DNA of 64,000 bases, from assembly GCA_963575745.1 (NCBI GenBank), contig CAUYUJ010000004.1:1-64000 (forward strand), given 5' to 3'. Position numbers and translations under genes: made by a program. The notes below the pieces were generated by a model, which did not search any database, was not told where the DNA came from, and saw nothing but the letters and a program-made list of their open reading frames with translations. Source of the stretch: Prorocentrum cordatum. Taxonomy: Eukaryota. Positions 41,323 to 60,412 of the stretch are shown here, piece after piece; the stretch's first letter is position 1; every line of letters starts with the position of its first letter.

Positions 41323-41401
<79 letters not shown>

Positions 41402-41411
41402 GTGCTGCTGT

Positions 41412-41550
<139 letters not shown>

Positions 41551-41606
41551 CATGATGGGCAGTACTGGAACTGTAATCGTAGAGCGTTTGAAGGCCGTGC
41601 AGTGTC

Positions 41607-41628
41607 TCCGAAACTGCTTCGGCTCAAG
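41607..41628 (+). promoter_or_regulatory. Weak DinoSL-like motif in terminal repeat A1
   Basis: tccgaaactgcttcggctcaag, 16/22 ungapped to TCCGTAGCCATTTTGGCTCAAG; 46 nt before the ORF0 ATG. Confidence 0.45.
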
Positions 41629-41674
41629 CCTTTTTCGTAGGAGGCCTCCGAGCACTGCCGCGTCCAGGGCCTGG

Positions 41675-42211
41675 ATGCGTGCGGTGGGCCAGGGCGCGGT
41701 GCTACTGGCCTTCCACGTGGGCTCCGCCTGGGTCGGCCAGCTCTGGGCATCCTCTCGGGCACCGAGCGCCCAACCTCCGGCGCGGGCGCCTGCGGCGCCA
41801 GCGCCCGCCCCGCGAGCGCGGGGCCCACTGGCGGCCGCCGCGCTGCCCACCCCCGCGCTGGCCCAGGCGCTGTGCGCGGAGCTGGAGGCGTGCCTCCCGG
41901 TCTGCCCGCCGGTGCACCTGGCCGCCTGCCCTGACCCTTGCCTGGCGTGCCCCGAGTCGGCCAAGGTGGAGTTCAACTGGGGCGTCGAGGTCTCGTTCGG
42001 CCTCTTCACGCTCCTCGTGTGGGAGCTCTGCCGGCTCGGCGTGCCCTTTCCCTGGCGGTTCTGGCGAGGCTGTGGCCGCGCCGGCACGCGAGCGTACCAG
42101 CCCTCGTGGACGCCCCAGAGGGCGGGCCAGGGCCGCACGCCGGTGATCGGCGGGTGCCAGGCGGACGCGGGCGCATCGCGCCGGCGGTCAGGTAATGAAC
42201 ATTGGCGATGA
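41675..42211 (+). CDS. E1 ORF0: 178-aa putative membrane protein (hydrophobic N-terminus, Pro/Cys-rich linker, TM segment, basic tail)
   Basis: GAVLLAFHVGSAWVGQLW...CLPVCPPVHLAACPDPCLACPES...VSFGLFTLLVWELCRLGV...RR-rich tail; positional counterpart in E2. Confidence 0.65.
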   Translation: MRAVGQGAVLLAFHVGSAWVGQLWASSRAPSAQPPARAPAAPAPAPRARGPLAAAALPTPALAQALCAELEACLPVCPPVHLAACPDPCLACPESAKVEFNWGVEVSFGLFTLLVWELCRLGVPFPWRFWRGCGRAGTRAYQPSWTPQRAGQGRTPVIGGCQADAGASRRRSGNEHWR

Positions 42212-43456
42212 GGTTTTGGTCGAGTATGACTTGGCTGGGGCTCCGCTGCTGCACTCTCGGGTCGTCGCTGGAGTCTCTCAAGTGGACGCTCTTCACGCTG
42301 CTGTGTCTCTCCAGATCACGATGTCATTGTCGAGTTCTTCACTGATGACAATGATGATGTGCGTCACTGGTACCGGAAGCTTTCAGGTGGAGTCCTCTTT
42401 AGGAGCGACGGCGACATGGTCCCTGCTGCGGCGGCAGGGGCCTTCAGGCGCTACGAGTTCGCTGTGCAGCCGACCGCCGCCGAGATGCAGGCCTTCATGC
42501 AGCAGGCTGGGCACATCTTGCTGGGCACGATGCTGCTCTTGGAGCGGTCGCCGCTGTCGTGCCGGCGGGGCCCGTTGCCGCCGCCAGAGCCGCCCCACCC
42601 GCCGCCGCGGGCCCCCCGGGTGGAGGCCTCGCGCTCGCAGGTGGGGCGCAGGGTGGCCTGGCCGGGCTGCTCGCCGGCGCTGGGGGCGCCGCGGGCGCGG
42701 CAGGTGGCGGAGGCGCGCAGGTTCCGCCAGCCGCGGCTGCCGCCGATCCAGCCGCCGCGGGAGGCGGGGGAGCCGCCTTTGCTGCGGCCTTGGCTGGCCC
42801 GGCGCTGGGCCAGGCAGGAGCTGGCGGCGCCGCTGGTGTGGGCGCCGGCGCGGACGACAGCGGGGACCGCCGCGCGCTCGTCGTCGCCTACGACATCAAC
42901 GGGAAGCGGCGCCGCTCCTTCGCCGCGGCGATCGGCCTCCTCCGCGCCGCCACCTGGGCGGACTGGGTGGTCCCCGGACCGCGGACGGTGTGTTGTGTCG
43001 CAGTTTTCATGCTGGAGAACGGCGGCAGCGCCCTCTCACCACGTGCAGTGGAGGTCGGCCCTTCGGCTCGGGCTGGAGGACGCTGTGGTCTCCAACCACC
43101 AGGAGTTCTCCAAGATCTTCGAGACGGCGTTGTGCTGCGACCAACTGGATGTGTCGAATTTGGTCAGCCTCGAGCTCGTCGCTCGTCAACTTCAATTGCG
43201 TGAAGAACTTCGCAAGGATCGGCTGCTGGGCGCGACGCGTGACGGCAGCGGCATCCAGGTCGAGGGGTCCTACTTCGCAGGGGTGGGCGGCGCGCGCGGG
43301 CTCATGGTGGCGCCCGAGTTGTCGACGTGGATCAGCGAGCAGATCCCCCGCGATAATGCCGCGGCCAGGGAGAGGAGGAAAGCCAGAGAGGAGAGGGCGC
43401 TCGCCCGGCCCAAGCAGAAGCCAAAGGGCGGCAAGCACGGTAAGGAGGGGGAGTGA
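42195..43456 (+). pseudogene. E1 gag-like ORF (frameshifted)
   Basis: Shares motifs with the E2 ORF in the same position: G..V.V.Y...R...PD.DV..E; R.L.V..D..G.R..S; GP; DQL....L......R. Confidence 0.7.
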
Positions 43457-43544
43457 TCTCTCGTTCGTCTCCTATGATTTCGGCTGCCTGCCGCTCCTCG
43501 GCCCGGGGCGCGTGAGCCTTCTGAGTTTCGGTCAGGAGGGGGAG

Positions 43545-45600
43545 ATGCGCCAGCGGGGCGTCTTCCCCTTGCCCCCTCTTCCTCTTCCTGAACCTGCTGG
43601 TCATGGTTGCCGCGCTGTCGCTCGCCGTGGCCAGCGCCGTCGACGCTCCCTTGAGTGGGCCAACGACGGCGTCGCTTCCCTGAGCGCCCTCTCTGGGCGC
43701 GGGTCGGAGGCTTTAGGATTGCCCGGCGCGGCCCAGTGCGCCGCCCTCGAGCACGTGGAGCGCACCTACTGCGCCATGGGCGCCTGCCCCGCCGACCTCC
43801 GCCGCCGCGGGGGCCTTCGTGAGCTCTGCGGGAGCGCTGCCGTGCACGGCGAGTGCTCGACTACCATCGCATCCCGCAACAAGGGCGCTGTGTCCTGGCC
43901 GGCCGTGGGGGCCCAGCCTGCGCCGCTCGGCATTGCGTTCCCAGCCGCGCGCCCTTCCTGGTTGAAGGACTCGACGGCCAATGTGCGAAGACCTCCAGCT
44001 GCAGCGGCTGCCCTTCGGTCTGAGCTCGGACGTCTACGTCCTTATCTTGACCCTGCGCTCCGGGGCCAGCGAGTGCGCGGTGATTTCGTGAAAGAGTTGG
44101 TCAGCCGTGGCATGGCCAGATTGATTCCCCACGCCGACCCCGGGGGAGGCGGCGCGACGGTCGGCCTGTTCTTCGCCTGGGAGAAGTCCGGCAAGCAGAG
44201 GGTCATCTTCGACGCGCGCCTCGCCAATTGCGACTTCGAGGCGCCCCCTTCAACCCGTTTGCCACCAGCTGGGCCGTTCGCCAGGGTGGGAGGGTGGGGG
44301 CCCAGGAGTGCGACGCGGCGTGGCGCAGCGCGGGCGACGTCCAGAACGCGTTCTACGCCATCGAGGTGCCCGAGGAGCTCGGCTCGAGTTTCAGGCCCCC
44401 CAGCGCGCGAGGTGGCGCAGCGGGTCTTCGAGGCCCGGCAGGCGCCGCCGTGCGCGCGCCGGTGCTGACCGTGCTGCCCACGGGGTGGAGCTGGGCGCTG
44501 CACCCCTGCCAGCTGGTGACCGAGGAGGGCATCTCCTGGGCGGCCATGGCCCAGGCGTTCTGGTGAAGGACCGCGAGGCCGCGGCGCCGCTGGGGCCTTC
44601 GAGGCCGCTGGCTGCTGCTGGCTACGTGGACAGCTGCATGGGGATGGGGGGGCCTCGAGAGCGAGTCGCGGCTTGCGGGCAGTCGGTCGCCTCCGCGCCG
44701 AGGGCCCAGGGGTTCGTCATCCACGAGGAGACCGGCGGAGCCGTGTGCCACACGGACTTCGTGGGCCTCAGCTTCGACGGCAAGGGGCGCGCGGTCGAGA
44801 TTTCCACGAGACGCACGTGGCGGCTACGGCTCGCCATCGATGAGTTGCTGAGGCGCGGCTCCTGCTCCGGACACGTGCCGGAGATCGTCGCGGAGCGCGC
44901 CGCGTGGATCATGATGGTGCAGAGGTCCACGCTGTCGATCTTCAGCTCCGTTTTACCCCTTCATCAAGATCCTGGGGAGCGAGGCCGGCACTCTGTGGAC
45001 CTCCGTGAAGGAGGAGCTGGAGCACGTCAGGAACCTTTTCCCCATGGTGATCGCGCGCCCCGGCCGCAGCTGGCACGGCAGGGCGACGGCCAGCGACGCC
45101 TCGCACTGGGGCTGCGGGGTTTGCGAGCGGACCGCGCCGGCGGAGGAGGTGGCTCGCTGGGGCCACACTGCCGAGCGGTGGCGGCATCGCCAGGGGGCGA
45201 CCGCTGCCCGCGCGCACGCCTTCAACGGGGAGGCCGAGGGGCTGGGCCACGTGCTGGTCCAGGGCGACCTGCCGGACAGCCTGGGGCAGGCCGAGGAGCA
45301 CGCCAGGGCGTTCGACATGGTGGGCACTGACGAACATTCTTCGGCTTGAGGGGCTCGCTCTGTCTAACTCGCTTCGCCGCCTCCTTCGCGATCGAGGGCC
45401 TTCGGCCATCGTGTGCTGCTTCTGGTCGACAAACTCGGCCTGGCCCTCGCGGCTGAAAAGGGCCGCTCGGCCGCGTTCCAGCTTCGAGATATCCTCGGGG
45501 AGATTTCGGCACTCACCCTCGCTTGTGGCATTAAGGCGTGCGTTCGCTGGGCCCCGTCCGAAAGGCGCCCAGCCGACAACCCCTCAGGAGGACTCTACTT
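43545..45600 (+). pseudogene. E1 reverse transcriptase / RNase H (frameshifted)
   Basis: GLFFAWEKSGKQRVIFDAR; GDVQNAFY; LPTGWSWA; YVDS at 44623-44634. RNase H: ASDASHWG.G, LVDKLG, RWAPSE..PADNPS. Confidence 0.9.
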
Positions 45601-45755
45601 CCTCAAGTCGCAGGGCGAGGCGGACGGGCCCCCTGGTCTGGCTGCTGGCGCTGCTGGGGCTGACCTTCCAGCCGCGCCAGGCTTCCCGCCCCTCGGCAAG
45701 GCTCCGCCCGTGCGAGACGGCCTCGCCGAGGCCGGCGGCGGCGCCCTGGGCGGAG

Positions 45756-46814
45756 ATGCAGGGGGCGGCGCGGTCGTCAGTGGCTGCAGCCGCGCGAAGG
45801 GCCCGATGCCGCCCGCCATCAGCAGATACGGTGCCCCCCCAGGGGGCGTTCCTGCCCAGCTTCCTGGGGTCGCGGTCGGTGGCCAAGGCAACGTTCACCG
45901 ACTACAAGAAGCGGACGTTGATCTTCCTCGCCTGGGCCGTCCAGAGGTCGGCGACGTGGGCGACCGTAGGGGAGCTCGACCAGGCCTTGGTGGGGCACAT
46001 GGACCGCCTCTTCTTCCTGGGCTGCTCGGGCGACGTGGCCAGCAAGACCCTGGCGGCGGTGAAGTTCTCCTACCTGGACGTTGGCCGGTACGGCGCCCGG
46101 GGCCTCCCCCGCGCGGCGCGGGCGCTTGCGGGCTGGAGCGCGGTGGTGCCGCGCGCCGCCAGGATGCCTGTGCCGCGGCTGCTGGCTGCTGCGCTGGCGG
46201 GGCACATGGTCGCGAGTGGTCTGCTGGAGCTCTCCATCGCGCTCCTGCGGGCGTTCCACGGCTACCTCCGGCCGTCGCGAGCTTGCAGCTGCTGATCCCG
46301 CCGGTGACGGGTGCCGGCTTTGGGCAGCAGGCGTGGGCCGTGCTGCTGGGGCCGAGCGAGCTGGGGGCGCCGACGAAGGTGGGCGCCTTCGACGAGAGCG
46401 CGGTGCTCGACGGCATCCCGTACCTGTGCGACTGCCTGGCCGCCCTCGAGGCGAGGTGCAAGTCCCCGAACGATCGGATCTGGAGTTTCCCGCGAAACGA
46501 CCTGTCCAGGCAGGCGCAGGCGTCCGCGGAGGCCCTCGGTCTCGAGGGCCTGGGCCTGATGGTCTACGGCCTGAGGCACGTCGGCGCCTCGCGCGACCTC
46601 CTGCGCCGGCGCCGCTCGGCCTTTGAGGTCAAGTCGAGGGGGCGCTGGAGGAGCGACGCGATGCTCGAGCGGTGCGGCAAGGAGGCCGGGGCATTGGCCG
46701 AGTTGCGCTTTGGCGCTCGAGTTCGGGCAGCGCGTGGCCGTCCGCTTCCGCGAGATCTTCATGGGCCGCGAGGCCCCGCCACCGGCGCCGCCGCGTCGTC
46801 TGAAGGGCGGCTGA
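45756..46814 (+). pseudogene. E1 tyrosine recombinase (two frameshifts; catalytic Tyr position is Cys)
   Basis: YLRP, PTKVGAFD, YGLRHVGAS, RGRWRS...ERCGK (TGC at 46673, where E2 has RYEK). Confidence 0.88.
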
Positions 46815-46837
46815 GCGACGGCCAGGTTCGGATCAGG

Positions 46838-47641
46838 ATGCGCCGAGTTTTGAGGCGGGCTCTTTCTAGCTCCTCGGTTTTCAGAGGGCAGGTTTTCCTT
46901 TCATTATATGCCGGGCAAGCCGGCCTATCCAGGGCCATGCGTGGCCTAGGATTCGGGGTGATTTCCGTAGATATCCTTCGGCAGCCGTGGTTTGATCTAG
47001 ACCGGGCCTGTGTCCAGAAGATCGTGCGGGGCTGGGTCACGGGGGGGGTCGTCGTCGGTCTCTGGATGGGCACGCCCTGCTGTTCCTGGTCTCAAGCGCG
47101 GCACGGACCCCCAGGGTCCAGCTGGTGCCGCCTTCGAAATTCAGCCCACCTTTGGGGTCTCCCAAACCTCGAAGGGCGGTCCCTCGAAGCTTGCCGCCGG
47201 GGAAATTCGCAGCTCAAGTTTTGCCTTTCACTGATCCGTACGTGCTGCCGCCTCCGAATCCCCGTGGCCTTCGAGAGCCCGAGTACGAGTTGGATGTGGC
47301 AGGTTCCTCAGCTTGCGCGCCTCTGCAAGAGGCAGGATTCGCGTGCCTGTGTTGTGGACCACTGTGCCTTCGGTTGTAGGTGGCGCAAGCGTACTCGGAT
47401 TCAGGTCTGAGGATCGGGTTTTAGTATCAAGCTCCCGAGTCTCTGCCGGGGGCGTTCGGGGGTGTGCTGTTCTTCAGAGAAGCGACACATCGTGCTCACC
47501 GGAAGTGACAGAAGCTCGGGCAAACTGTGGACGCGAGTTGCTGGGCCTTACCGTGTTCGGTTTTGTAAGTTGTTTGCCCGAGCTTTCGAGCAGTACATAA
47601 GCAATCTTAAATTCTGCCGTCTCCGGCAGCTTATACATTAA
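46838..47641 (+). pseudogene. E1 C5 cytosine DNA methyltransferase-like ORF (one in-frame TGA at 47408)
   Basis: Motif I-like FLSLYAGQAGLS; catalytic motif IV-like GTPCCSWS; motif VI-like FESP; CAFG..WRKRT. The frame continues past the TGA to TAA at 47639. Confidence 0.8.
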
Positions 47642-47775
47642 ATTTGCAACTAATGCCAGAAGCCCATCCGGGGTGCTTTGGGGATTCTCTTCTTCTCCCT
47701 CGTTCGTTGTTGTTGTGTGTTTGTGTGGTGTGTGTCTTGTGGTGTTGTTCTGTTGCTGTTCGTCCTCCTCCTCCT

Positions 47776-47809
<34 letters not shown>

Positions 47810-48321
47810 CTCCTCCTCCTCCTCCTCTCTGCTGCCGAGCCCTGCCCGAGTGCCGCTCTGTCCTGCCGGACCCGCCTGGACCACGACACACAAAGAATCG
47901 TGTCCTGGCCTGGGGGAGCGTCGCGATGGGCAGTTCTGGAACAGTAATTGTAGAGCGTTTGAAGGCCGTGCAGTGTCTCCGAAACTGCTTCGGCTCAAAC
48001 CTTTTTTCGTACCCGCCCTCTTTCTCCCTGTTTCTCTTCTTCTCTCTCGTTCGTTGTTGTTGTGTGTTGGTGTGGTGTGTGTCTTGTGGTGTTGTTCTAT
48101 TGCTGTTCGTCCTTCTCCTCCTCTCTGCTGCCGAGCCCTGCCCGAGTGCCGCCCTATCCTGCCGGACCCGCCTGGCCCGCGACACACAAAGAATCGTGTC
48201 CTGGCCTGGGGGAGCGTCACGATGATCATGATGATCATGATGATCGTGATGATGATGATTCTGCTGATGATGAGAATGATGATGGTGATGGTGATTGTGA
48301 TGGTGATGCTGGTGATGATGG

Positions 48322-48353
<32 letters not shown>

Positions 48354-48391
48354 GTGATGGCGATGGCGATGGCGATGGCGATCGCGATCGC

Positions 48392-48484
<93 letters not shown>

Positions 48485-48780
48485 GGTGGTGGTGGTGGTG
48501 GTGGTGGTGGTGGTGGTGATGATGATGATGGTGGTGGTGGTGGTGGTGGTTTTGTTGGGGTGATGGTGGTGGTGGTGATGATGCTGATTATGGTGATGAT
48601 GATACTGATGATCAGGATGATCATGATGATGACGATGTTGGTGATGATGGTGATGATGATAATGATGAATCATGATGATGATGACGATGATGATCATGAT
48701 GCTGCTGATGATGATGTGGATGATGATGATGGTGGTGATGATGGTGATGGTGATGGTGATGGTGATGGTGATGGTGATGG

Positions 48781-48816
<36 letters not shown>

Positions 48817-48822
48817 CGACGG

Positions 48823-48896
<74 letters not shown>

Positions 48897-50483
48897 GTGA
48901 TGATGGTGATGATGGTGATGATGATTATGATGATCAATGATGGTCATCATGATGATAATGACGAGGATGAGCAGCAACAGGAGGAGGAAGAGGTGGAGTC
49001 AGGTGGAGGAGGTGCCCGGCTCGAGGTGACCCTGGCGGTGCCGCCGCTGCGGACGCCGCCAGCGCCGCAGGTGGCGGGTGGTCGGCAGTGGGCTGGCGGA
49101 GCGGCGGCGCCTGGGGCGATGGCGCCTGGGGCGAAGGCGGGGACCAGTGGTCCGACTCGGGCTGGCAGGGCGGTTGCGGCGGCGCCTGGGGCGAGGGTGA
49201 GGACCAGTGGTCCAGCTCGAGCTGGCAGGGCGGCGGCGGCGGCCAGGGCGAGGAGCGGCGGCGCGCAGAGGGGCCCAGAGCCTCCTCGCCGCCGAAGGGC
49301 GCAGCCCTCCCATCTTAAGCACGACGGGAGGTGTCTGGTAGAGCTGGGCCGAGGTATAAGATCGAGGTCGCCTCGGGGAGGGTCCCCTAATGTTATTCGT
49401 GCTTGTTGAAGGCTCTTGCGCATCCTGGGAGAGGATGCCCTCGAATGTTCCTCAGTTTGGCCGGCGGAGGGTCTCAGGTTCTTGAAGGATGTTCTTCTGT
49501 CCAGGTTTAAGTCGGGCGTGTCCCCGGAGGAATATGCAAGAATAGTCCAACAATCGTATGGGGACGAGTTGTTCGTGCTCTTCTGACAATTGTTGAGCAT
49601 TTTTTTGCTATTTTTATGTTTCCTCCAAAATCCACCTGTAGGAGGACATGCCCGACCGAACCCCAGGTCCGGCCGTAGTCTCTTCTGCCACCGGGGGGGC
49701 CTTGCGGGGCCACAAGGCCGCGAAGAGACGACTCGGGAGCAAGAGCTCGTCCTGGGGAAGGGGGTCGAGACTTCCAGGGGTCCGCGCTGCGCAAGATCAC
49801 GGCTCACGGAAAGTGTGGGTACGACGTTCAAAAGCAGTCCCTGCTCATTTTGAACATGACTCGCCTATCGCGCCGCCGCGGACGTAATCCTCTGGAGACA
49901 GAAGCCGCCTGCCCCACAGCGGCAAATGTCGGTTTTGGACAGCTTTTGTTGTTGGGCATTGTGCCTGTTTCTTCCGTACACGCCGGTCGTTGAAAGTAAG
50001 TATTGTTGGGATTCCCAGATCCCAATCAGTTTCAAGCGCCTTCCTACTTCAACAGTCGACATGTTTTTGCCTGTGTTTTGTTATTCTCTGGGAGGGCCTG
50101 GGCCCAATCCACTTCGTCCGCCTTCCTACTTCATGCTTCTACCTATTTCTTCCGACCGACGTGTACCCAGTGCAGGCGTCCAAATCGGAGGCCCGCGCCC
50201 AGGGGGGGGCGGCCTCCCGAGAGCGCGGGGTCCACAGCCAAAGCCCTTTTCTGAGCCACGTCCAGCCGTGGCGACGAGCTCCTCCAGCAACGCCCACAGA
50301 CCTCCAAGATGGCGTCGTCGGTCGTGTCGTCGAACTTGTCGTTGACCTCGTCGTCGCCCTCGTCGTTGACCTCGTCGTCGACCTTGATGTCGTCGTCGTC
50401 GTGGTCGTCGTCGTCGTCGACCTTGCCGTCGACCTTGTCGTGGTCGTGGTCGTGGTCGTGGTCGGGGTCGGCGTCGGCGTCGG

Positions 50484-50521
<38 letters not shown>

Positions 50522-52224
50522 TCGTCGACAGGAGGCCGGTGCCGCGGCGGGGCACGAGGAGGGCTGGGAGCCGTGGTACATTGACGCCCACGACCTCGCG
50601 CTGCAGCCGCGTGGCCAGGGCGGGCACCGGTTCCGCGCTGGCCGCGAAGACTCGGCAGGCGGCGAGCGAGGGGGGGAAGCTGGAGGTTCGAACTTCGAGG
50701 CTCGAGGTGTTCGGACGCGTTCGCCAGTTCTCGGCGGTCTTCTAGCTTCGGGATGCTCGCCAGCAGCTGCGCCTCGCCGAGGGCGTTCCGGGGGTGCCCG
50801 GATCGTCCCGAACGGCCACCAGAGACCCGAGCTTGGACCCCAAAACCAAATTCAGCGGTGCGCCCAGGGGGGGGGAAGTGAGAAGGATAACGCCTTCTCA
50901 GAAGGCGGCGGGGCGTCTCAGAAGCCCTCGCGCCTTCGGAGAGGCCAGGGGAATTCCGAGATTTGAGAGAAGGCCTTCTCCTTCTCGCTTCCCCCCCCGG
51001 GCTCGCCGCCGAGTCGGGCTGGTCAGGGGCAGCGTTAGGGGGGGTGTTTTGGTTGGACGCTTCGAGGCGTTAGGTCTTCGGGCGTCTTCGTCGGTGCTCG
51101 GGGGTGTCAGCTTCGGTATGCCTTCCAGCGGCTACACCTCGTCGAGGGCGTTCTGGAGTTCCAGAATCGTCCCCAGCGGCCGCCAAGGAGCCGAATTGTG
51201 GCCTCCAAACCGCTCGGGCCAGGAGAAGGATGAGGAGGAGGAGGAGGAGGAGGAGGAGGAGGAGGAGGAAAAGGGGGAGGAGGAGGAGGAGGAGGAGGAG
51301 GAGGAGGAGGAGGAGGAGGAGGAGGAGGAGGAGGAGGAGGAGAAGAAGGGACCGATATTCTGCTGCTTCTCTTGGAGAGCCCTCGTCGCCACGGCTGGAT
51401 TCTCCTCTAGATTCTGGTCGGAGCGCACCCTGGGAGAGGGCCAGGGAGTAGAGGTACCTTTCTCTTCCGCCAGGGAACGGCTGAAGCGTGCAGAAGAGGG
51501 GACTCGAGCGTGGCTGAGGAGAGGGCCGAGGCGTGGAAGAGGGGGGTGAGGATCAGGGACTTTTGAAACCACGGCTGGGGCCATGAAATCTCCAACATGT
51601 CATGGCCCATTCTTTTCTTGTTCAGTGCATCCCCTGGCTCCCTTGGTCCGTACAGATGCCTCGGGTCATGATTCGCTGACCCTTTTTGAGTGGCTTCCTT
51701 GTCTGCTGGGCCTCCGAGAGCCTCCTCGGCGCGAAGGCTGGACCCCCCTGGGTATTCTTGCCTGAACGCACACCATGGAAAGGTCCTGGGGTCGATACTT
51801 GAGGGGAGGAGGCGGAGGAGGAAAAGGAGGAGGAGCAGGAGCAGGAGCAGGAGCAGGAGGCGGAGGAGGAGGACCAGTGTAAAAACACAAGAGTCACCAA
51901 CGATGTTGGAATAAACCCTCCCCCCAAGCTCCCTCTTCATGGGCCCCATACAACGGGTCTTTTCCACGGAGCGACCTGCCACGTTGGAAGACAACCGTTT
52001 GAAGACCCTGAAGCATGCCAAAGCATTGTTCTTGGGATTCCAACGCCACGGTTCAACTTGACTGTTGCGCCTTGACGACGCTGAATCGTGCCAGAACGCC
52101 ATTCCTGGAATTTCAACACCGCGAATCATCGTAACTGTTGCACCCTCATAGTCGTGAATCCTTCCAAAACGCAATTTCTGGTACGCCGAGCTTGTGAATG
52201 TGTGCAGCTCTTGTGATTTCTTAC

Positions 52225-52782
52225 AGCGAATGTGCGCGGCGCTAAGGCGAGAGCCACATTTTGAAAAGGAGCCGCCCTCAATCCGTGAAACTCTTGCAAA
52301 TGTCCAAAGCGAATGTCCGCGGCGCTAAGGCGAGAGCGCTAAGGCGAGAGCCACATGTTGAAAAGGAACCGGCCTCAATCCGTGAAACTCTTGCAAATGT
52401 TGAAATCCAATGTGTGCGGTGCTGGGGCGAGAGCCACATGTCGAAAAGGAGCCGCCCTCAATCCGTGAAGCTCTTGCAAATGTTTAACACGAGCGTGCGC
52501 GGCGCTAAGGGGAGAGCCGCATGTTGTAAACGACCCGCCCTCTATCCGTGAAGCTTTTGCAAATGTCCAAAACGAATGTCCGCGGCGCTAAGGCGAGAGC
52601 CACATGTTGAAAAGGAACCGCCCTCAATCCGTGGAGCTCTTGCAAATGTTCAAAATGAATATGCGCGGCGCGAAGGCGAGAGCCACATTTTGAAAACGAC
52701 CCGCCCTCCATCTATGAAACAGTTGCCAATTGTTAAGCTTCAGGGTCATAAATGGTGAGGAAGTCTCAGGCGAAACGCCCGG
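52225..52782 (+). repeat. About 83-bp tandem repeat array with a fixed end motif, copy 2
   Basis: Same unit and same terminal tctcaggcgaaacgcccgg as 19975-20490. Confidence 0.85.
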
Positions 52783-53341
52783 CCCGCCCTGACAATTGGC
52801 TTCGGGGTTCGGCAGGGAGAAATTATTCATAAGGAAAAGACTGAAGGAGGAGGAGGAGGAGGAGGAGGAGGAGGAGGAGAAGGCGGACGAAGAGGAGGAG
52901 GAGGAAGACGAGGAGGCGGGGCAAGGAGGAGGAGGAGAGGCACTGGCACTGGCACTGGCCAGGCCCATCCTGGGCCCAGGAGCGGGGGGGTCAGGGCCAG
53001 GGGTGGGTGGACCTCGTGGCGGGGGCCACGAGACCTCCCCGGGTGCACAGACCCCTCGCGCTCTGAAAATATCACGACGGGAGGTTTTTCGCTAGTTTCG
53101 GTCTCCGGGAGGCCCTTCCCAGGACCCAGGACCGTCAAAAAATGACACAGGACGAAACATTGGTGCCGGGGAAGGGGTCCAGAACTCTGGGAGTCAACGT
53201 CATGGGTGTGCGGGGCACGTGAATGAGTGATGGGAGGTCTTGAGTGTCGGTGCCCTTTTGAAGTCCCATTTCGTTCTGCCCCGTAGGTTTGATCCCGTGG
53301 AATGCGCGGTCGAAATGCTGAGAACCAAATTTTTTGACCGA

Positions 53342-53361
53342 TCTGTAGCTTCTGGCTCAAG
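53342..53361 (+). promoter_or_regulatory. DinoSL-like motif before E2 ORF0
   Basis: tctgtagcttctggctcaag: 18 matches to the 22-nt SL with a 2-nt gap; 22 nt before the ATG at 53384. Confidence 0.55.
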
Positions 53362-53383
53362 AATCAGAGCAAGGTCTCTTTTG

Positions 53384-53872
53384 ATGCTGCCATCGCACCT
53401 CTCAGCGACGTTGCTGTCGGTGGGGTTGATCTTGCGGGGGGCATTGCATTGGCATCTGCTCTCCGAGGTTGACCACGTTGTCAACTACGCTGTTGAAGAG
53501 GCCGTGGAGCGCATCGAGAACGTGACGGTCAAGAGCCTAGTGTGCCCGGCGAGTCTGGGACCCTCTGACTTTCCTGACTGTCCGGACTGCGTGTGTCCGG
53601 CCTGCGTGTGCCCAGCTCCCTCGCCCTGCCCGCCGATTGGCTGGGCGGACGTCGCGGACCAGATCGACTTGCACAGCAAGCGTCCAGACGAGAACAACTC
53701 CTTCTTGATCGGCTTCGGGGCGGGCGTAGTCTTCACCACGTTCCTCGTCGCCGGTTACTCCGCTTGCAGGCGGGAAGCACCACTACGTCGTAGCCATGGC
53801 GATGGCGGTCATGGTCGATGTGCGCCGGGACGCTCAGGGACGGTCTCTGAGCCTCGCGGAGTTCTACGATAA
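53384..53872 (+). CDS. E2 ORF0: 162-aa putative membrane protein with CPxC repeats
   Basis: LSATLLSVGLILRGALHW...CPDCVCPACVCPAPSPCPP...FLIGFGAGVVFTTFLVAGYSAC-RR; intact. Confidence 0.7.
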   Translation: MLPSHLSATLLSVGLILRGALHWHLLSEVDHVVNYAVEEAVERIENVTVKSLVCPASLGPSDFPDCPDCVCPACVCPAPSPCPPIGWADVADQIDLHSKRPDENNSFLIGFGAGVVFTTFLVAGYSACRREAPLRRSHGDGGHGRCAPGRSGTVSEPRGVLR

Positions 53873-55251
53873 GATCCGGGTTGGTCAGAGCCTGGCCTTG
53901 CACTACCCGGGCGAGCCGAACTGGATGGAGAGAGTGCTCATCTGCGCGGGACCGGTGTCCGGCGGCCGCCGGACCAGCAGTTGGTTCGGGATGACTCCCG
54001 ACCTAGACGTGTACGAGGAGGACATCACGGGCGAAGGCGACATGTGTGACGGTGTGGTGGTCCTGGACGACGATGGCCGTACGCCGGCTTTCCTGCGGGG
54101 GAAGTTCTACCGCTTCCGGGACGAGGACTATTTGGGGGACGACGAGCTGAAAGCGAAGTGCCGGGACATCGCTGCCTCCCTGCGGGCGCATCAGGAGCCA
54201 GGGGATATGCCTTACTTCTTGAATTACGAGGGGGAGGTCAAGCCCTTGGCTGGCGTCAGCCGGCGCACTCTTGCGAGGGGCGCCCGAGGAGCCGCAGCTG
54301 CGGGCTCTGCGGACGCCCAAGGGGGGGGCTCCAGACCAGCCCGCCATTAGGGCGGGGTGCGTTTGGGTGATGGCGGAGGTCGGCGCCTTCGCCGCCGTCG
54401 GCACGGAGGTCAGCCTCGGCCCCAAGTCGGTGATCATCAGCGATCGCGACGCCCTTGTCGAGGACAACGGGTCCCTCTGGCGGGTCCAGGCGATGCCCGT
54501 CGTCGAGGCCCCGAACTTCGCCGAGAAGGTGCTCGATCGGGTCCGGAAGGTCGTCGAGCCCCTTGCTCCTGCGGGGCCGCCCGCGGGCTCGGGCCAGGCC
54601 CCGCCGATCGCGGAGGACGACTGTCGCACTCTCTGGGTGGACGTCGACGAGCAGGGGTCCCGTTTTAAGAGCTGGCGGAAGTTGTGCACCGAGCTGTACC
54701 AAGAACCCCTGAAGTCAGATGACGTGCTGGGGCCTCCTGGAGCCATCCACCTCTGCAAGCACATGCAGCGGTATGGGGGCTGCCCTCGGAGGTGGGCCTT
54801 GGATTTTCTCTGAGACCGGGGAATCCAGCGCAGCGACCAGGTCTACCATGAACTCGTCGCCTGGTGCGAGGTCCTCAAGCTGCTGGGCGAATATGACCAG
54901 CTGAACCTGGGGGCCCTGGCTGGGGTGCAGAAGCTGACCAGGAGGGTGAACGGCATCATCGAGGCGTACGGCTCCCCGGGGGCCGTGAGCTGGCGGATGG
55001 CAGGGGTGCTGGAAGGAACGGCCAGCCACCTCGACGCCATTAGCCCCGCGCTGCGGCAGTGGGGCGTTCGGCGCATCAAGGACCAGAACGAGCTGGAGGC
55101 GGGCCGCAGCAGAGTGGCTCCGCCGACGCAGGATGGCGAAGGGGCGCTTGAAGGCGCCGGAGACGTCTCTGGGCGCGGCCGAGGCCGCGGCGGCGACCGG
55201 GGGAGAGGGCGCGGACGGTCAGCAGCCCGAGCCCCTGGAGATGGAGGTTGA
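53796..55251 (+). pseudogene. E2 gag-like ORF (frameshift near the G-run at 54321-54328; in-frame TGA at 54811)
   Basis: TPDLDVYEE; RTLWVDVDEQGSRFKSW; YDQLNLGALAG; GR-rich tail. Confidence 0.72.
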
Positions 55252-57568
55252 GAGAGGCCGTCGGGGCGGAGGAGAGGCTCCCGCCTCCGCCCCGTTGCAT
55301 GTTGGGAGTGGCAGGCTGCCCTGGTCTGCCAATTCGCGTCGGCTGTTCCCGCTAGAGTCAGGAGTCGTGGACGAGCCGTTGCCGAGAGAGGCCGGGGGTC
55401 GCACCCTGGGTCGTCAGAGGCGGCCGCGGCACATAGCGGGCCTAGTCAATGACGCAGTGCACTCGCTTAATTGGTTGGCAGGCGATCGATCGGAAAAGTC
55501 ACTTGCCCACTCTGCTGAAGCGGTCCGTCCATTACCCCCTTCGTCGAAGACTTCGTCGTCGGCGTCGGGATGGAGGAGGGCGGGCGCGGGCTTCGGGGTG
55601 ATGGGCGACATGGGCGAGGCGACCGTCGATCACCTCACCGACCTCGCCGGTCTGTTTTGCCCCCCGGGGGGGAATCCAGATTACCGGCCGCCGGAAGCCG
55701 CCTTGCGAGAGCTGCTCCGGGATCGCCCCGGTGGATGCGATGCCACTGGGGCGCCGACAGCGTTGGCCCCCTGTCGACAGGGCCTGGTGTCCCTTCCGGA
55801 TCCCGTGGACAAGATAGCCAGAATCGAGGATCTTGTGGGGGCCCGAGGCAGTTACTTTCTCGAGAGGGACGGTGAGCGAATGTTGGGCAACAGCACGAAC
55901 AATGAGAACTGATGGGGGAATGAACGAGATCGTCGATATGTTGTCCCGCACCTGGTTGGCAACAAGAGGCGTTATGCCCGATTTGTACGTGATCTTCGAA
56001 AACGCGGCCTCGTTAGATTCGGCCTCACTGTCGAGGAAGAGTGCGGGGTTTTCTTTGTCAAGAAGAAAAGCGGGCGCTTGCGCATGATATTGGATCCCCG
56101 GCGCGGCAGCGCGAGGTTTGCTGAGCCGCCCAAGGTGGACCTCGTGACCGCAGAGGGGCTGGGCAGAATTGCGGATGCGAAGGACGCCTTCCGCAGGATG
56201 GCCATGCCCGAGTGGCTCTCGAGATACTTCGGCCTCCCCGCCCTGCCGGCCAGCGCCCTGGGCCTCACTTTCGTCGACGGGGTCCGCGTCGGCCCCGACG
56301 CATTGGTTCGCCCGATGCCGACGTGTCTGCCCATGGGCTTCAGCTGGTCGTTGTTGCTTGCCCAGGATGCCGACGAGGTGTCTGCGTCGTCGGTGCTTCC
56401 CCGGGCCGAGCTTCTCACAGATCGCGGGAGGCCCTTGGCATTGTCGGTGGCCGAGCCCGAGAGAACCCGCCATTACGTTTATGTCGACAACGTCGGTGTC
56501 TTCGGATTCAGCATGTCCGTCGTTTCGGAACGCCTCGACAGTGTGGTGGAGTCTTTCGAGCGCCGGGGGCTCCAAATCCACGAGAAAGACATCAGCGCTG
56601 ACGGCGTCGAGGCCCTCGGGGTGCTCCTGAACGGACGAAGAGCCCGCGCCCGGATCACGACGAAACGGTTCTGGCGGGTTCGCGGGGCGCTCGTGGCACT
56701 TGCTCGGCAGCGTCGTGTGACGGGCAGGGAAGTCGAGGTGGTGATCGGCCACGCTACTTTTTGCGGTCTGCTGCGGGGTGAAACCCTCAGTGCTTTTAGC
56801 ACAGTGTATGCTTTTATACATAAGTACTATAACATTCCCGCTGATCTCTGGCCCTCCGCCCGCGAGGAGTTGCGGGCTTTCGCTGGTTTAATGGTGATGC
56901 TAGTCAGCTCCTGGGCCCTACCCTGGAACACCTATGTCATCTCCTCCGACGCATGCGCTACGGGGTTCGGAGTAACCGCGCGCCGTGCGCGAGCGTCTCT
57001 TGTGCCCTCCGTTGGCCGTGTCCGCGAGCGAGACCGATATTTAACCAAGGGGCACGTGGCGGCCCGCGAAGCGGCCCTCGGTGCTCTCGGCCTCTTGAGC
57101 CCCCCCCCGCCGGGGGCCCTGGAGGGGCTCCCCCGGGGCGATTTGGTCCAGGGCCAGAGTTTTTCGGAAGTGCCCGGGGAGCTCTTGGAGGAAGACAAAT
57201 GGTCCGTCGTCGGAGCTTGGCCGCTTGAATTCCAGGAGGACATAATGGTGTTGGAAGCCAGGGCCGTGCTCAGAGCTGTAGAAAGGATCCTTCATTCCGA
57301 GCCAGGGCGCAACATGCGGCAGCTGACTCTCTGCGACAATTTGGGTCTCACCTCGAGCATTTCCAGGTGGCGTTGTTCATCGTTCCCAGTTCTGGTGGTT
57401 ATCCGCCGCATTGCCGCCATTTGTTTAGCCAGGAACGTGCGCCTCAGCGTCCGATGGATCCCCACAGAAGTGAGCACATCGGATGCGCCGCCCTGGGTTT
57501 TCGAGCCAGGGCCCCCCCCCGAAAGAGGCCCCTCGAGCTTTCGACGGCGGCGCCCCGGTGCGTTTTGA
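55241..57568 (+). pseudogene. E2 reverse transcriptase / RNase H (frameshifts near 55900-56000)
   Basis: GVFFVKKKSGRLRMILDPR; DAKDAF; LPMGFSWS; YVDN at 56480-56491. RNase H: SSDACATGFG, LEARA, CDNLG, RWIPTE..TSDAP. Confidence 0.92.
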
Positions 57569-57836
57569 AGGGCAGGAGGTTTCGAACGAAGTGGGCCAGG
57601 CACCACGGCCCGAATCGCCCCTCAGCACCGCGCCCCATGAGAAGCTGCGCATTTCTCTTTTTGATGCTTTGCGTTTGGATGGGCATGAGAACCGCGAGAG
57701 ACCTCGGCGGCCGCTCGGCCAGCAGTGCCAGAGTGGCCTGACCAAACCGTATGTATGCCTTGGAGTGAGCAGTCGGTCAGGCGCCCCTTCTGAACCCGAG
57801 CTGGAAAACAGCGCACATCGATGTCGCCCCTCCCCT

Positions 57837-57858
57837 TCCGTAGCCGTTGTGGCTCAAG
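57837..57858 (+). promoter_or_regulatory. Near-perfect DinoSL motif upstream of the YR ORF
   Basis: tccgtagccgttgtggctcaag, 20/22 ungapped to TCCGTAGCCATTTTGGCTCAAG; 45 nt before the ATG at 57904. Confidence 0.8.
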
Positions 57859-57903
57859 CGCCGGGCTGCGAGCAAACGTTGGCCAGCTTCCCATTCCTTC
57901 ACG

Positions 57904-59328: not shown

Positions 59329-59907
59329 TGCAAGACGGGCATCGGGCCGAGTTCCTCGCTTTTGGACCGAATGCCCAGCGGGTTGCTGCCGCTCTCCGCC
59401 GCCAGGGATTTGAGAGTCGAGGCAACAGCTGGGAATCTGTGTCGCGTCGGTCGGCCGTGCGTTTCATCTCGATGATTCAGCGCTCTCAGGTCCTGGGCGT
59501 GTTTCTAGACCTCACAGCCGGATTCGATGGGTGTATCCCGAGCCGTCTGATTGATGTGTTGTCGGTTGATGGTGCCTTGCCTCTGCGTGTACTATCCTGA
59601 CTCCCTGTCGTCGCTTGCGTCGGTGTCAAAACGACTAACCGATGACAGTTTTCATCATGTGAAGTGCCATTCGTGCGGCTACGGAGGCGTTTCCCGGGAA
59701 GCCTTTTATTTCTGCGCCTTCGGCTTGGCACTTGAAGATCTTGGCCGGCTCACCCGGCAGTGCCGCGGAGCGCACTCATATTGCGGTTTCCGGTGCCCTC
59801 CTCGGCGCCACAGTCGGACCTTCACGAGGCTATTTCCGCTCGCTCTCTGCGACGCGGTCGCTTTTTCCCTCGCTTCTCTGCCTCGGTCCCTCTACCTACA
59901 AGTGTGA
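59316..59907 (+). pseudogene. E2 methyltransferase-like ORF lacking catalytic motifs (one frameshift near 59550)
   Basis: Aligns by eye to the E1 MTase (CCRL.VP, CGYG, L...CRG....C...RH, FP..LC), but the G-loop, PC and ExP motifs are absent. Confidence 0.55.
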
Positions 59908-60176
59908 ACAGTTCCTGACTTGGGGAACCGAATTGGGGGATCGAGGTCGGCCGGACTGCCCCGAGGACCGGTGGTCAGCCGCGGCTTTTGCACATCAGAT
60001 CTTATAATTTATAGTGCTGGCGTCCAGCGCGCTGCGACGTAGGCCACGCCGGACTGCAAAGAAAGTGATCCGCAAAAAGAGTTTCAACATCTATCATGAA
60101 AATATCATGACGTCGGGGGTTTGGGAGGGTGGGTGGACCTCGTGGCGGGGGCCACAAGGCCTCCCCGAGTATTTCT

Positions 60177-60412
60177 AGGCCTCCTAGATGGGGTCGGGGC
60201 AGATGGGGTCGGTGCATCGTGCCGCATCGCCGATGCATCGCCGATGCGGCTCGATGTGGGGCCCGGTTTGCTTCACAACGACGTCGCTGATGTATCGCCG
60301 ACGACGATGCATCGCCAGTGCATCGCCGATGCATCGCCGATACATCGGCGATGCGTTGGCGATGCGACGCGATCCCCCGACCCCATCTACCCAGACCCCA
60401 TCTGGGAGGCCT
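60177..60412. mobile_element. MITE with about 36-bp TIRs and internal gatgcatcgcc repeats
   Basis: aggcctcctagatggggtcggggcagatggggtcgg / ccgaccccatctacccagaccccatctgggaggcct; TSD unresolved. Confidence 0.75.

What the first reader, a model, noticed from the sequence alone, without database searches (positions are those of the whole stretch)
41675..53872. Conserved extra ORF0: a small Cys/Pro-rich membrane protein upstream of gag in both YR retrotransposons
Seen: E1 (41675-42211) and E2 (53384-53872) each begin with a 160-180 aa ORF of the same design: N-terminal hydrophobic segment, CPxC-rich linker, second hydrophobic segment, Arg-rich tail. Each overlaps the gag start (17 and 77 nt), follows an SL-like motif and remains open, with little primary-sequence identity between them. 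Known: canonical DIRS/Ngaro elements encode gag, RT/RH, YR and sometimes an MTase or hydrolase; I know of no standard membrane ORF. Inference: an envelope-, viroporin- or fusogen-like accessory protein, raising the possibility of membrane-associated or transmissible YR retroelements.
Basis: partly seen in the sequence, partly recalled or inferred. Interest (0 to 1): 0.85.

Follow-up and report, generated by a model that had tools for sequence, protein, structure and literature searches.

The report
Small membrane-protein gene heading dinoflagellate retrotransposons
A group of dinoflagellate jumping genes that copy themselves through RNA carries, ahead of its usual genes, a conserved gene for a tiny membrane-spanning protein, apparently read from the same messenger RNA as the next gene, which is unexpected for this class of element; what the protein does is unknown.

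Summary
Both elements start with an ORF of the described design, at the stated coordinates, overlapping the gag-position ORF by 17 and 77 nt. Open frames are cheap in this 63-76% GC sequence, so the window alone proves little.

The decisive evidence is external. Six of six related elements from metagenome contigs (about 50% GC, RT 37-41% identical to E2) that reach far enough upstream carry a 105-107 aa ORF0. It has the same design and the same position. The non-overlapping part of these six ORF0s is under protein-level selection.

In eight of eight elements:
- gag lies in the +1 frame relative to ORF0.
- No ATG in any frame lies between the ORF0 ATG and the gag ATG.
- A relic spliced leader sits 10-46 nt upstream of ORF0.

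I read ORF0 as the first cistron of a leader-capped mRNA, with gag reached by leaky scanning.

Limits:
- ORF0 sequences of the three lineages are not detectably homologous.
- E1's copy is weak.
- One more distant element lacks ORF0.
- There is no RNA or protein evidence.
- An envelope, pore or fusion role is untested.

Earlier notes of this scan covered leader-capped LINEs and an intron-rich recombinase element in this genome. None covered ORF0.

The parts
41554..41639 (+). E1 terminal repeat A1 (copy A2 at 47925-48011); its 3' part holds the spliced-leader-like motif
   Evidence: 87 nt, 94% identical direct repeat
41607..41628 (+). E1 relic spliced-leader-like motif, 46 nt upstream of the ORF0 ATG
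   Evidence: 16 of 22 identical to DinoSL without gaps; no ATG between it and ORF0
41675..42211 (+). E1 ORF0, 178 aa: N-terminal hydrophobic segment, Cys cluster (41873-41950), weak hydrophobic segment (41990-42046), Arg-rich tail
   Evidence: GC at codon positions 1/2/3 = 0.76/0.67/0.88; codon score 0.155 bit/codon, barely above a reverse frame at 0.123
42195..43456 (+). E1 gag-position ORF. It starts in the +1 frame relative to ORF0 and continues in other frames
   Evidence: no ATG between 41678 and 42194
47685..48224 (+). E1 3' repeats B1 (47685-47928), A2 (47925-48011), B2 (48032-48224). The whole element is flanked by (GAT)n on both sides
53196..60093 (+). E2, approximate limits of the insertion into a very high-copy repeat
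   Evidence: contigs of runs X1 and X2 join 53191-53199 to 60094-60193 without it; flank depth is 1,292 to 95,559
53342..53361 (+). E2 relic spliced-leader-like motif, 22 nt upstream of the ORF0 ATG
   Evidence: 18 of 22 identical to DinoSL with a 2-nt gap
53384..53872 (+). E2 ORF0, 162 aa: N-terminal hydrophobic helix (53384-53464), Cys cluster (53543-53629), transmembrane segment (53699-53767), basic tail (53768-53869)
   Evidence: codon score 0.278 bit/codon in frame against -0.39 and -0.30 off frame; a 162-aa copy at 93% identity exists elsewhere
53796..54813 (+). E2 gag-position ORF, +1 frame relative to ORF0. In this copy it is split into 53796-54350 and 54271-54813 by a 1-nt frameshift near 54321
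   Evidence: one base left out at 54321 in the X2 contig; 18 synonymous against 9 non-synonymous differences in this frame
56078..57568 (+). E2 reverse transcriptase / RNase H region
   Evidence: RVT_1 only at E 0.27; 9 relatives at E 1e-5 or better; 12 metagenome loci
57837..57858 (+). Second relic spliced leader inside E2, 45 nt upstream of the first ATG of the recombinase ORF
   Evidence: 20 of 22 identical to DinoSL, counted by eye on the sequence printed
57904..59328 (+). E2 tyrosine recombinase ORF
   Evidence: all listed fold matches are tyrosine recombinases

Best explanation
ORF0 is a real, selected protein-coding gene. It is the 5'-proximal cistron of a clade of dinoflagellate DIRS-like (split-repeat, SymbioDIRS-type) tyrosine-recombinase retrotransposons.

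Shown here:
- It is present, with the same design and position, in three lineages: E1, E2, and six metagenome elements.
- In the six metagenome elements the part upstream of gag evolves under protein-level purifying selection.
- The stretch from its ATG to the gag ATG holds no other ATG.

Inferred:
- The element's mRNA is capped by spliced-leader trans-splicing just upstream of ORF0. This makes the ORF0 AUG, which never lies in a favourable context, the first AUG.
- Some ribosomes start there and make a small single-pass membrane protein. It has an N-terminal helix, a Cys cluster on the non-cytosolic side, a transmembrane helix and a basic cytosolic tail.
- The other ribosomes scan on and start at gag (leaky scanning).

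Most speculative step: the protein ties translation or assembly of the element's RNA-protein particle to an internal membrane, for example through co-translational targeting of its own mRNA. I do not think it acts as a true envelope.
For: (1) Of 12 related loci from metagenome contigs, 6 reach 2,350 nt or more upstream of the RT match. All 6 carry a 105-107 aa ORF0 with a conserved N-terminus (MK[VL]E.L.L), a CxCxCxC cluster, a hydrophobic segment (KD 1.53-2.41) and a basic tail.

(2) At about 50% GC the ORF0 frame has 0 stops in all 6. The other five frames have 2-12, apart from one stop-free reverse frame in L005.

(3) Selection in the 48 ungapped codons upstream of gag: pS 0.80, pN 0.42, and pN is below pS in 15 of 15 pairs. 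Nucleotide identity at codon positions 1/2/3 is 0.50/0.60/0.36.

(4) E2 ORF0 has gene-like codon usage: 0.278 bit/codon against 0.20-0.47 for E2's own genes. It also has the same GC3 > GC1 > GC2 pattern.

(5) A second copy, P0001, keeps all 162 codons at 93% identity. It fits the X2 lineage at the two places that could be checked. If it is that lineage (31 nt differences in 412 nt), then 10 aa changes in 124 codons are fewer than neutral expectation: P 0.02 at 22 substitutions, 0.0003 at 28.

(6) Zero ATG in any frame between the ORF0 ATG and the gag ATG (226-517 nt) in 8 of 8 elements. By comparison, the 21 equal-length control segments after the gag ATG (7 elements) hold 2-11 each, and shuffle means for those 7 are 2.4-4.7.

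(7) gag lies in the +1 frame and overlaps ORF0 by 17-95 nt in 8 of 8.

(8) The ORF0 ATG lacks G at +4 in 8 of 8, and 3 of 8 also lack a purine at -3. The gag ATG has both in 5 of 8 (context rules from PMC5902531, passages).

(9) A spliced-leader-like motif ending in CTCAAG lies 10-46 nt upstream of ORF0 in 8 of 8, with no ATG in between.

(10) More K+R follow the hydrophobic segment than precede it in 8 of 8. AlphaFold2 gives two helices, 2-19 and 54-77.
Against: - Sequence homology between the three lineages is not detectable. An HMM of the six L ORF0s does not rank E1 or E2 among the top 15 of 665 window ORFs. hhalign gives probabilities of 1-2%. E1 against E2 is at chance level. Common descent of ORF0 is therefore inferred from position, frame and design only.
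- The basic tail shows no ORF0-frame constraint (pN/pS 1.01, no codon periodicity). Its conserved motif lies in the overlap with gag.
- All 12 aa differences between E2 ORF0 and P0001 are non-conservative, and 3 remove cysteines.
- E1's hydrophobic segment is below the usual threshold (1.42) and its codon score is weak.
- One more distant element, L014 (RT 32% identical to E2), has a gag-like first ORF and no ORF0.
- Nothing shows that ORF0 is transcribed or translated, and no family or fold match exists.
- The N-terminal helix of the L family carries an invariant Glu4 and a basic residue at position 13. It is therefore neither a textbook signal peptide nor a second membrane span.
Confidence: 0.6

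Rival explanations
1. One reading: ORF0 is an envelope-, pore- or fusion-type protein (like the reovirus FAST proteins or influenza M2). It permeabilises or fuses membranes and so gives the element a route between cells.
For: The size, the single membrane span, the basic cluster after it and a hydrophobic N-terminal helix fit such proteins. In avian reovirus the p10 fusion protein is likewise the first cistron after a 24-nt leader. It starts at AUGs with pyrimidines at -3 and +4, and the next ORF is reached by leaky scanning (PMC2978376, passages). E1 and E2 also have T at -3 and C at +4.
Against: No sequence or family match. None of the 8 ORF0s has Gly at position 2 for myristoylation. Feature similarity to an M2 cluster is 0.79, below the tool's lead threshold of 0.9. 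Sequence outside the helices and the Cys cluster turns over fast. Nothing here bears on particles or transfer.
Confidence: 0.1
2. ORF0 is only a long regulatory upstream ORF that throttles gag translation. Its peptide has no function of its own.
For: It overlaps the gag start, and its AUG is in a weak or moderate context. Its sequence diverges beyond recognition between lineages. The tail is unconstrained in the ORF0 frame.
Against: Protein-level selection acts upstream of the overlap: pN is below pS in 15 of 15 pairs and the third codon position is the most variable. There are invariant residues (M1 K2 E4 L8 G18 P24 C40 C44 C46). A hydrophobic span is kept in all 8. The length is kept at 105-107 aa in six elements whose ORF0s are 33-49% identical.
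Confidence: 0.12
3. ORF0 is joined to gag by a +1 ribosomal frameshift, or by a small intron. This would give a membrane-anchored Gag, comparable to the upstream-extended glyco-Gag of murine leukaemia virus (recalled, from no call).
For: gag lies in the +1 frame relative to ORF0 in 8 of 8 elements, with a 17-95 nt overlap.
Against: gag has its own ATG in all 8, in a favourable context in 5 of 8, and it is the next ATG after that of ORF0. This is what separate initiation predicts. I neither looked for nor saw a conserved slippery site.
Confidence: 0.08
4. Artefact: the window's two ORF0s are chance open frames in GC-rich leader sequence and only look alike.
For: There are 82 ORFs of 100 aa or more in 20 kb. 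In the E1 stretch the other frames have only 0-3 stops. E1 and E2 ORF0 have no significant similarity to each other. Both elements are damaged copies.
Against: The design occurs in only 4 of 665 window ORFs. ATG-free stretches of 409 and 517 nt, the +1 frame relation, and a relic leader upstream are shared with six elements at 50% GC, where chance ORFs are rare. E2 has gene-like codon usage.
Confidence: 0.04

Closest known systems
SymbioDIRS / SymbioDIRS-Dnmt3 retrotransposons of Symbiodiniaceae (de Mendoza et al. 2018, PMC5890265; passages read)
   Same: Dinoflagellate elements with the repeat layout A-coding-B-A-B, a divergent RT that Pfam barely sees, a separate tyrosine-recombinase ORF and, in some, a methyltransferase-like module. 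E1 has that repeat layout. E1 also has a C-terminal module shared with the L loci (30% identity over 239 aa).
   Different: In the passages I read, the paper describes the Pol and recombinase ORFs only. The word 'gag' does not occur, and no small membrane ORF is mentioned. [quoted passage not shown] I did not see its supplements.
Avian reovirus S1 mRNA with the p10 FAST protein as first cistron (Racine and Duncan 2010, PMC2978376; passages read)
   Same: A small single-pass membrane protein is encoded by the 5'-proximal, partially overlapping ORF behind a very short leader. It starts at a poor-context AUG, and the next ORF is reached by leaky scanning.
   Different: That is an RNA virus, not a retroelement. 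There is no sequence relation. Fusion activity is known for p10 and unknown here. ORF0 has a CxCxCxC cluster and lacks an acylation motif at its N-terminus.
Leaky scanning through AUG-free ORFs I and II of rice tungro bacilliform virus (as reviewed in PMC5902531; passages read)
   Same: A reverse-transcribing element translates successive ORFs from one RNA, because the upstream ORFs hold no internal AUG in any frame.
   Different: That is a plant pararetrovirus with a 900-nt AUG-free stretch and ribosome shunting. Here the stretch is 226-517 nt and the mechanism is inferred from sequence alone.
env and env-like ORFs of LTR retrotransposons and retroviruses (recalled; PMC4408406 seen as a search listing only)
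   Same: An extra membrane-protein gene in a retroelement.
   Different: Those lie 3' of pol and encode large glycoproteins. ORF0 lies 5' of gag and has 105-178 aa.
Relic DinoSL of dinoflagellate retrogenes (Song et al. 2018, PMC6050394; passages read), and the leader-capped LINEs noted earlier by this scan in the same genome
   Same: A degenerate copy of the 22-nt spliced leader lies just upstream of the first ORF.
   Different: Here it lies inside a tyrosine-recombinase element rather than at the end of the insertion: about 150 nt inside E2, and at the 3' end of repeat A1 in E1. A second one precedes the recombinase gene.

Membership tests
DIRS-order tyrosine-recombinase retrotransposons (split-repeat, PAT/Ngaro/SymbioDIRS type) | Reverse transcriptase | tested here: inconclusive
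   Pfam RVT_1 scores only below its cut-off: E 0.27 for E2 and 0.0047 for L005. A profile against PDB sequences finds nothing. The alignment has a conserved Y-V-D-N box. PMC5890265 says these RTs fit Pfam poorly.
DIRS-order tyrosine-recombinase retrotransposons (split-repeat, PAT/Ngaro/SymbioDIRS type) | Tyrosine recombinase instead of a DDE integrase | tested here: met
   All listed Foldseek matches are tyrosine recombinases (Cre/Tre at 5e-4, XerA, lambda and HP1 integrases). The model is of low confidence (pLDDT 52.6) and TM-scores are about 0.3. Invariant R145, R244-H245, W268 and Y277 in alignment A5. Pfam and PDB sequence searches found nothing.
DIRS-order tyrosine-recombinase retrotransposons (split-repeat, PAT/Ngaro/SymbioDIRS type) | Split direct repeats A1 - ORFs - B1 A2 B2 | tested here: inconclusive
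   E1: met (A1 41554-41639, B1 47685-47928, A2 47925-48011, B2 48032-48224). E2: no terminal repeat found between 53196-53400 and 59329-60100 (best score 23, shuffle maximum 26).
Retroviral / errantiviral env | Large glycoprotein gene 3' of pol | tested here: not met
   ORF0 has 105-178 aa and lies 5' of gag in all 8 elements.
FAST proteins (fusion-associated small transmembrane proteins) | Under 200 aa, one membrane span, polybasic cluster on its C-terminal side (features recalled) | tested here: met
   105-178 aa. One segment of KD 1.42-2.41. K+R after the segment exceed K+R before it in 8 of 8.
FAST proteins (fusion-associated small transmembrane proteins) | N-terminal acylation site or fusion-peptide-like ectodomain (recalled); sequence relation to a known member | tested here: not met
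   0 of 8 have Gly at position 2. No Pfam family. No relative in 1.84 billion representatives other than P0001. A hydrophobic N-terminal helix exists, but its role is unknown.
FAST proteins (fusion-associated small transmembrane proteins) | Cell-cell fusion activity | not testable with these tools
   Needs expression in cells.
Class I viroporins (influenza M2 type) | Homo-oligomeric channel formed by the single span | not tested
   The complex-prediction job (four copies, alignment A3) was never accepted because the queue was full. Feature score to a Flu_M2 cluster is 0.79, below the tool's 0.9 lead threshold.
Relic DinoSL | Similarity to the 22-nt leader DCCGUAGCCAUUUUGGCUCAAG upstream of the first ORF | tested here: met
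   E2 18/22 (2-nt gap), E1 16/22 (no gaps), L loci 14-17/22 with gaps. The site before the E2 recombinase ORF matches 20/22, counted by eye. Leader sequence as printed in PMC6050394.
Leaky-scanning polycistronic mRNA (RTBV type) | No AUG in any frame between successive starts; upstream AUG not in a favourable context | tested here: met
   0 ATG in 8 of 8 elements, against 2-11 in each of 21 control segments taken from 7 of them. 0 of 8 ORF0 ATGs have both a purine at -3 and G at +4.
Leaky-scanning polycistronic mRNA (RTBV type) | Both proteins made from one RNA | not testable with these tools
   No run on record as RNA holds the stretch.

The most novel reading that the evidence does not exclude
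ORF0 is a membrane-active protein (a FAST-like fusogen or a pore former). It would be the functional equivalent of an envelope gene for tyrosine-recombinase retroelements, letting their particles or RNA cross between cells, for instance at gamete fusion or between symbiont and host. These elements would then be a third, independent lineage of retroelements with an infectious-type module.
Probability: 0.08. Interest if true: 0.9.

Novelty: new variant of a known kind. Interest (0 to 1): 0.68.

Why it matters
As far as I know and could search, tyrosine-recombinase retrotransposons are described with gag, RT/RNase H, a recombinase and sometimes a methyltransferase or hydrolase, but no membrane protein. 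A conserved first cistron for a small membrane protein would mean that part of their poorly understood life cycle happens on a membrane.

Three features together give a concrete, testable expression model for retroelements in organisms where every mRNA is trans-spliced:
- the ATG-free stretch;
- the relic spliced leaders before ORF0 and before the recombinase gene;
- the fixed +1 overlap.

The finding also matters for annotation. ORF0 has no family and sits in what is usually called the leader, so it is easily missed.

Tried and rejected
- RNA support: no RNA holder listed. X2 and X3 are only guessed to be RNA and are kept as contigs, so they say nothing on transcription.
- dN/dS for E2 ORF0 from laid contigs: the table of differences was cut (418 rows not shown), and none of the 31 differences of X2 record 9 over 53345-53756 was listed. 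I therefore used P0001 with a simulation, which depends on P0001 being that lineage.
- Pfam on ORF0, gag, RT and recombinase ORFs of the window and of the L loci: nothing except weak RVT_1.
- Representative search with E2 ORF0: besides P0001, only two long bacterial repeat proteins hit, through a short 'GWADVAD'-like repeat. I judged these spurious.
- Word-based search with E2 gagA: none.
- Atlas look-alikes: best scores 0.76 (E2) and 0.81 (L005), at the level of shuffled sequences.
- AlphaFold2 on the six L ORF0s: pLDDT 59.7, two helices only, not worth a fold search.
- PDB sequence searches with the recombinase profile, the RT profile and two methyltransferase-like tails: none.
- Viral-contig scan with E2 RT: none.
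- Alignment A1 was too gappy for the locus search. The smaller alignment A2 worked.
- Terminal repeats of E2: none found.
- Introns in E1: for the first frame switch (about 42290-42314) I found, by hand on the sequence, no GT..AG pair of the right phase.
- Complex prediction of four ORF0 copies: never accepted because the queue was full, so there is no result.
- No whole genome is held for this window.

Full report
**What is in the window**

The stretch holds two distantly related retroelements on the + strand, in GC-rich (55-70%) DNA of a dinoflagellate type. The organism is not known. One RT relative, 49% identical to E2, is named Prorocentrum cordatum by its source, and earlier notes of this scan call the genome Prorocentrum-like.

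E1 runs from 41554 to 48224.
- It has the split direct repeats A1 - ORFs - B1 A2 B2 and is flanked by (GAT)n on both sides.
- Its RT and recombinase homology is spread over several frames.

E2 is an insertion of about 6.9 kb (about 53196-60093) into a very high-copy repeat.
- Contigs of two runs join the flanks without it.
- I found no terminal repeats in it.
- It carries a 1-nt frameshift in gag relative to a related copy.

E1 and E2 share only 29-36% amino-acid identity in RT and recombinase. Pfam sees almost nothing in them, as de Mendoza et al. report for Symbiodinium DIRS elements (PMC5890265, passages). A low-confidence model of the recombinase domain (pLDDT 52.6) matched only tyrosine recombinases among the listed hits (Cre at 5e-4).

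**The observation**

- E2 ORF0 has a clear membrane span: KD 1.88 at aa 106-124.
- E1 has only a marginal one: 1.42, with Glu and Arg inside.
- Both have a moderately hydrophobic N-terminus, 6-7 cysteines in a stretch of 26-29 residues, and more basic residues after the span than before it.
- They are not significantly similar to each other.

Being open is weak evidence at this GC content. The design, however, occurs in only 4 of 665 ORFs of the window, two of which are simple-repeat ORFs.

**Is ORF0 a gene? Evidence from the window and close copies**

E2 ORF0 shows the codon-position GC pattern of the element's own genes: 0.62/0.49/0.77 against 0.68/0.47/0.80 for gag. The 144 nt upstream of its ATG do not.

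Its codon-usage score is 0.278 bit/codon in frame, against -0.39 and -0.30 off frame. E2's genes score 0.20-0.47. E1 is weaker: 0.155, with a reverse frame at 0.123.

Searches of 5.8 billion and 1.84 billion proteins found one real relative, P0001. It has 162 aa, no gaps and 93% identity. All 12 differences are non-conservative and three remove cysteines.

Run X2 holds a copy about 92.5% identical in DNA: 31 differences in 412 nt over 53345-53756, no gaps. In gag, the 27 listed differences upstream of the frameshift are 18 synonymous and 9 not. The other two frames would give 5-6 synonymous. This pair of lineages has therefore diverged under selection.

The ORF0 differences themselves were not listed, because the table was cut. 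P0001 agrees with the X2 copy at the two places that can be checked. If it is that lineage, 10 amino-acid changes in 124 codons are too few for neutrality: P 0.02 at 22 substitutions, 0.0003 at 28. This step is conditional.

**Evidence from distant relatives**

An RT alignment (A2) retrieved 12 loci from metagenome contigs, 37-41% identical to E2 in RT and at about 50% GC. Six reach 2,350 nt or more upstream of the RT match. The other six stop at 1,150 nt or less and cannot be judged.

All six testable loci carry an ORF0 of 105-107 aa immediately upstream of, and overlapping, the gag-position ORF. It consists of:
- a conserved N-terminus (invariant M1 K2 E4 L8 G18);
- a CxCxCxC cluster (invariant C40 C44 C46);
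- a hydrophobic segment (KD 1.53-2.41);
- a basic tail.

The ORF0 frame has no stop in any of the six. The other frames have 2-12, apart from one stop-free reverse frame in L005.

The six are diverged from each other: ORF0 33-49% identical, gag 44-55%, RT 52-72%.

In the 48 ungapped codons upstream of the gag ATG, pN (0.42) is below pS (0.80) in 15 of 15 pairs. Identity is lowest at the third codon position (0.50/0.60/0.36). The first 22 codons, which align without gaps from the ATG, give the same result.

The tail that overlaps gag shows no ORF0-frame constraint (pN/pS 1.01). Its conserved SPRR.G.G motif may be kept for gag's sake.

AlphaFold2 on these six gives only two helices, 2-19 and 54-77, at low confidence.

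**What speaks against one family**

Neither an HMM nor a profile comparison links the L-type ORF0 to E2 or E1. What the three lineages share is position, frame, design and the signals below. At the rate at which ORF0 diverges relative to RT, loss of detectable similarity at 37% RT identity is expected, but common descent is an inference.

One more distant element from a misbinned genome contig, L014 (RT 32% identical to E2), starts with a different gag-like ORF and has no ORF0. ORF0 therefore belongs to a clade, not to all such elements.

**How it is expressed (inferred from sequence)**

In 8 of 8 elements the next ATG after the ORF0 ATG, in any frame, is the gag ATG, 226-517 nt further on. 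For 7 of them:
- shuffles expect 2.4-4.7 ATGs (P 0.006-0.084 each);
- the 21 equal-length control segments after the gag ATG hold 2-11 each.

gag is in the +1 frame in 8 of 8.

No ORF0 ATG has both a purine at -3 and G at +4. Five are moderate and three weak by the rules quoted in PMC5902531. Five of eight gag ATGs have both.

This is the signature of leaky scanning. It is known from rice tungro bacilliform virus, with its AUG-free ORFs I and II (PMC5902531). It is also known from the avian reovirus S1 mRNA, whose first cistron is the small membrane fusion protein p10 (PMC2978376).

Ten to 46 nt upstream of every ORF0 ATG lies a motif ending in CTCAAG that resembles the 22-nt dinoflagellate spliced leader. 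E2 matches 18/22, E1 16/22 without gaps, and the L loci 14-17/22 with gaps. No ATG lies in between. If a new leader is spliced on there, the ORF0 AUG is the first AUG of the mRNA.

A second relic leader (20/22, counted by eye) lies 45 nt before the first ATG of the E2 recombinase ORF. Four L loci have a CTCAAG motif 37-48 nt before theirs. This suggests two trans-spliced mRNAs per element.

**What it does**

This is the weakest part. The charge distribution puts the tail in the cytosol, and the Cys cluster and N-terminal part on the other side. Only the helices and the Cys cluster are conserved.

I favour a membrane-anchoring role that ties the element's translation or particle assembly to an internal membrane. 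None of these was tested directly, and the oligomer prediction could not be run.

**Comparison with what is known, and novelty**

The elements fit the SymbioDIRS type of de Mendoza et al. Its description, in the passages I read, mentions no gag and no small ORF. It does note transcription biased to the 5' region. I did not see the supplements.

Four full-text searches gave no paper that describes a membrane ORF in tyrosine-recombinase retrotransposons:
- dinoflagellate / retrotransposon / tyrosine recombinase / methyltransferase;
- DIRS / transmembrane;
- env-like;
- dinoflagellate / DIRS / ORF1.

A 2026 preprint on DIRS-like elements holds neither 'transmembrane' nor 'membrane'. Subscription journals are not covered.

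I rate this a new variant of a known kind: a known class of element with an undescribed conserved first gene and an unusual expression layout.

Noticed in passing
window 57837-57858; also L003, L004, L010, L011: A near-perfect relic spliced leader (20 of 22) lies inside E2, 45 nt upstream of the first ATG (57904) of the recombinase ORF. Four related loci have a ...GGATACATGCTCAAG motif 37-48 nt upstream of their recombinase ATG. This suggests a separate trans-spliced mRNA for the recombinase.
   Followed up: partly
L005:4181-5569 and L003:4458-5852: The recombinase ORF (463-465 codons) lies wholly inside the long Pol ORF in another frame. Two of the three frames have 0 stops and the third has 27-30, at 54-55% GC. 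This is a dual-coding stretch of about 1.4 kb.
   Followed up: partly
window 41178-41553 and 48225-48940: E1 with its split direct repeats is flanked on both sides by long (GAT)n microsatellite, as if it had inserted into one.
   Followed up: partly
window 52950-53193 and 60026-60250: The flanks of E2 are an extremely abundant repeat (summed contig depth 1,292 to 95,559, against about 1-30 inside E2). Contigs join the two flanks without E2. Short copies of a 44-52 nt piece lie at 52989-53044, 60127-60170 and 60416-60466.
   Followed up: partly
window 54271-54350: In this copy, E2's gag-position ORF is split into two overlapping frames. A related copy in run X2 lacks one base at 54321, which puts the two parts in one frame.
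   Followed up: partly
window 46880-47587: The C-terminal part of E1's last ORF resembles the tails of the L loci (30% identity over 239 aa to L006, E 1e-24). It has motifs that I recall as cytosine-methyltransferase motifs I, IV and VI. Neither Pfam nor PDB sequence searches confirm this. E2 lacks the module.
   Followed up: partly
window 46600-46700: Where E2 and the L loci have the conserved ...VARYEK... with the presumed catalytic tyrosine, E1 reads ...LERCGK.... Seen by eye on the translations. It fits E1 being an inactive copy.
   Followed up: no
L002:1-77 and 6304-6380: The two ends of this contig are identical over 77 nt (period 6,303 nt). The element was therefore assembled as a circle or a tandem.
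   Followed up: no
window 53880-54100; L loci gag starts: The gag-position proteins share an N-terminal domain with the pattern G..LAVWYSDD..WHER..LW....ILTPD.DVY. E1 has a degenerate form. There is no Pfam match.
   Followed up: no
L014:1-1400: A more distant element (RT 32% identical to E2, 64% GC), filed in a bacterial genome bin, begins with a 361-aa gag-like ORF with a Gly/Arg-rich end and has no ORF0.
   Followed up: partly
window 52156-52750 and 60177-60412: A tandem array with an 83-nt period lies upstream of E2. A 70-nt inverted repeat built of an 11-nt GCATCGCCGAT-type unit lies downstream.
   Followed up: no
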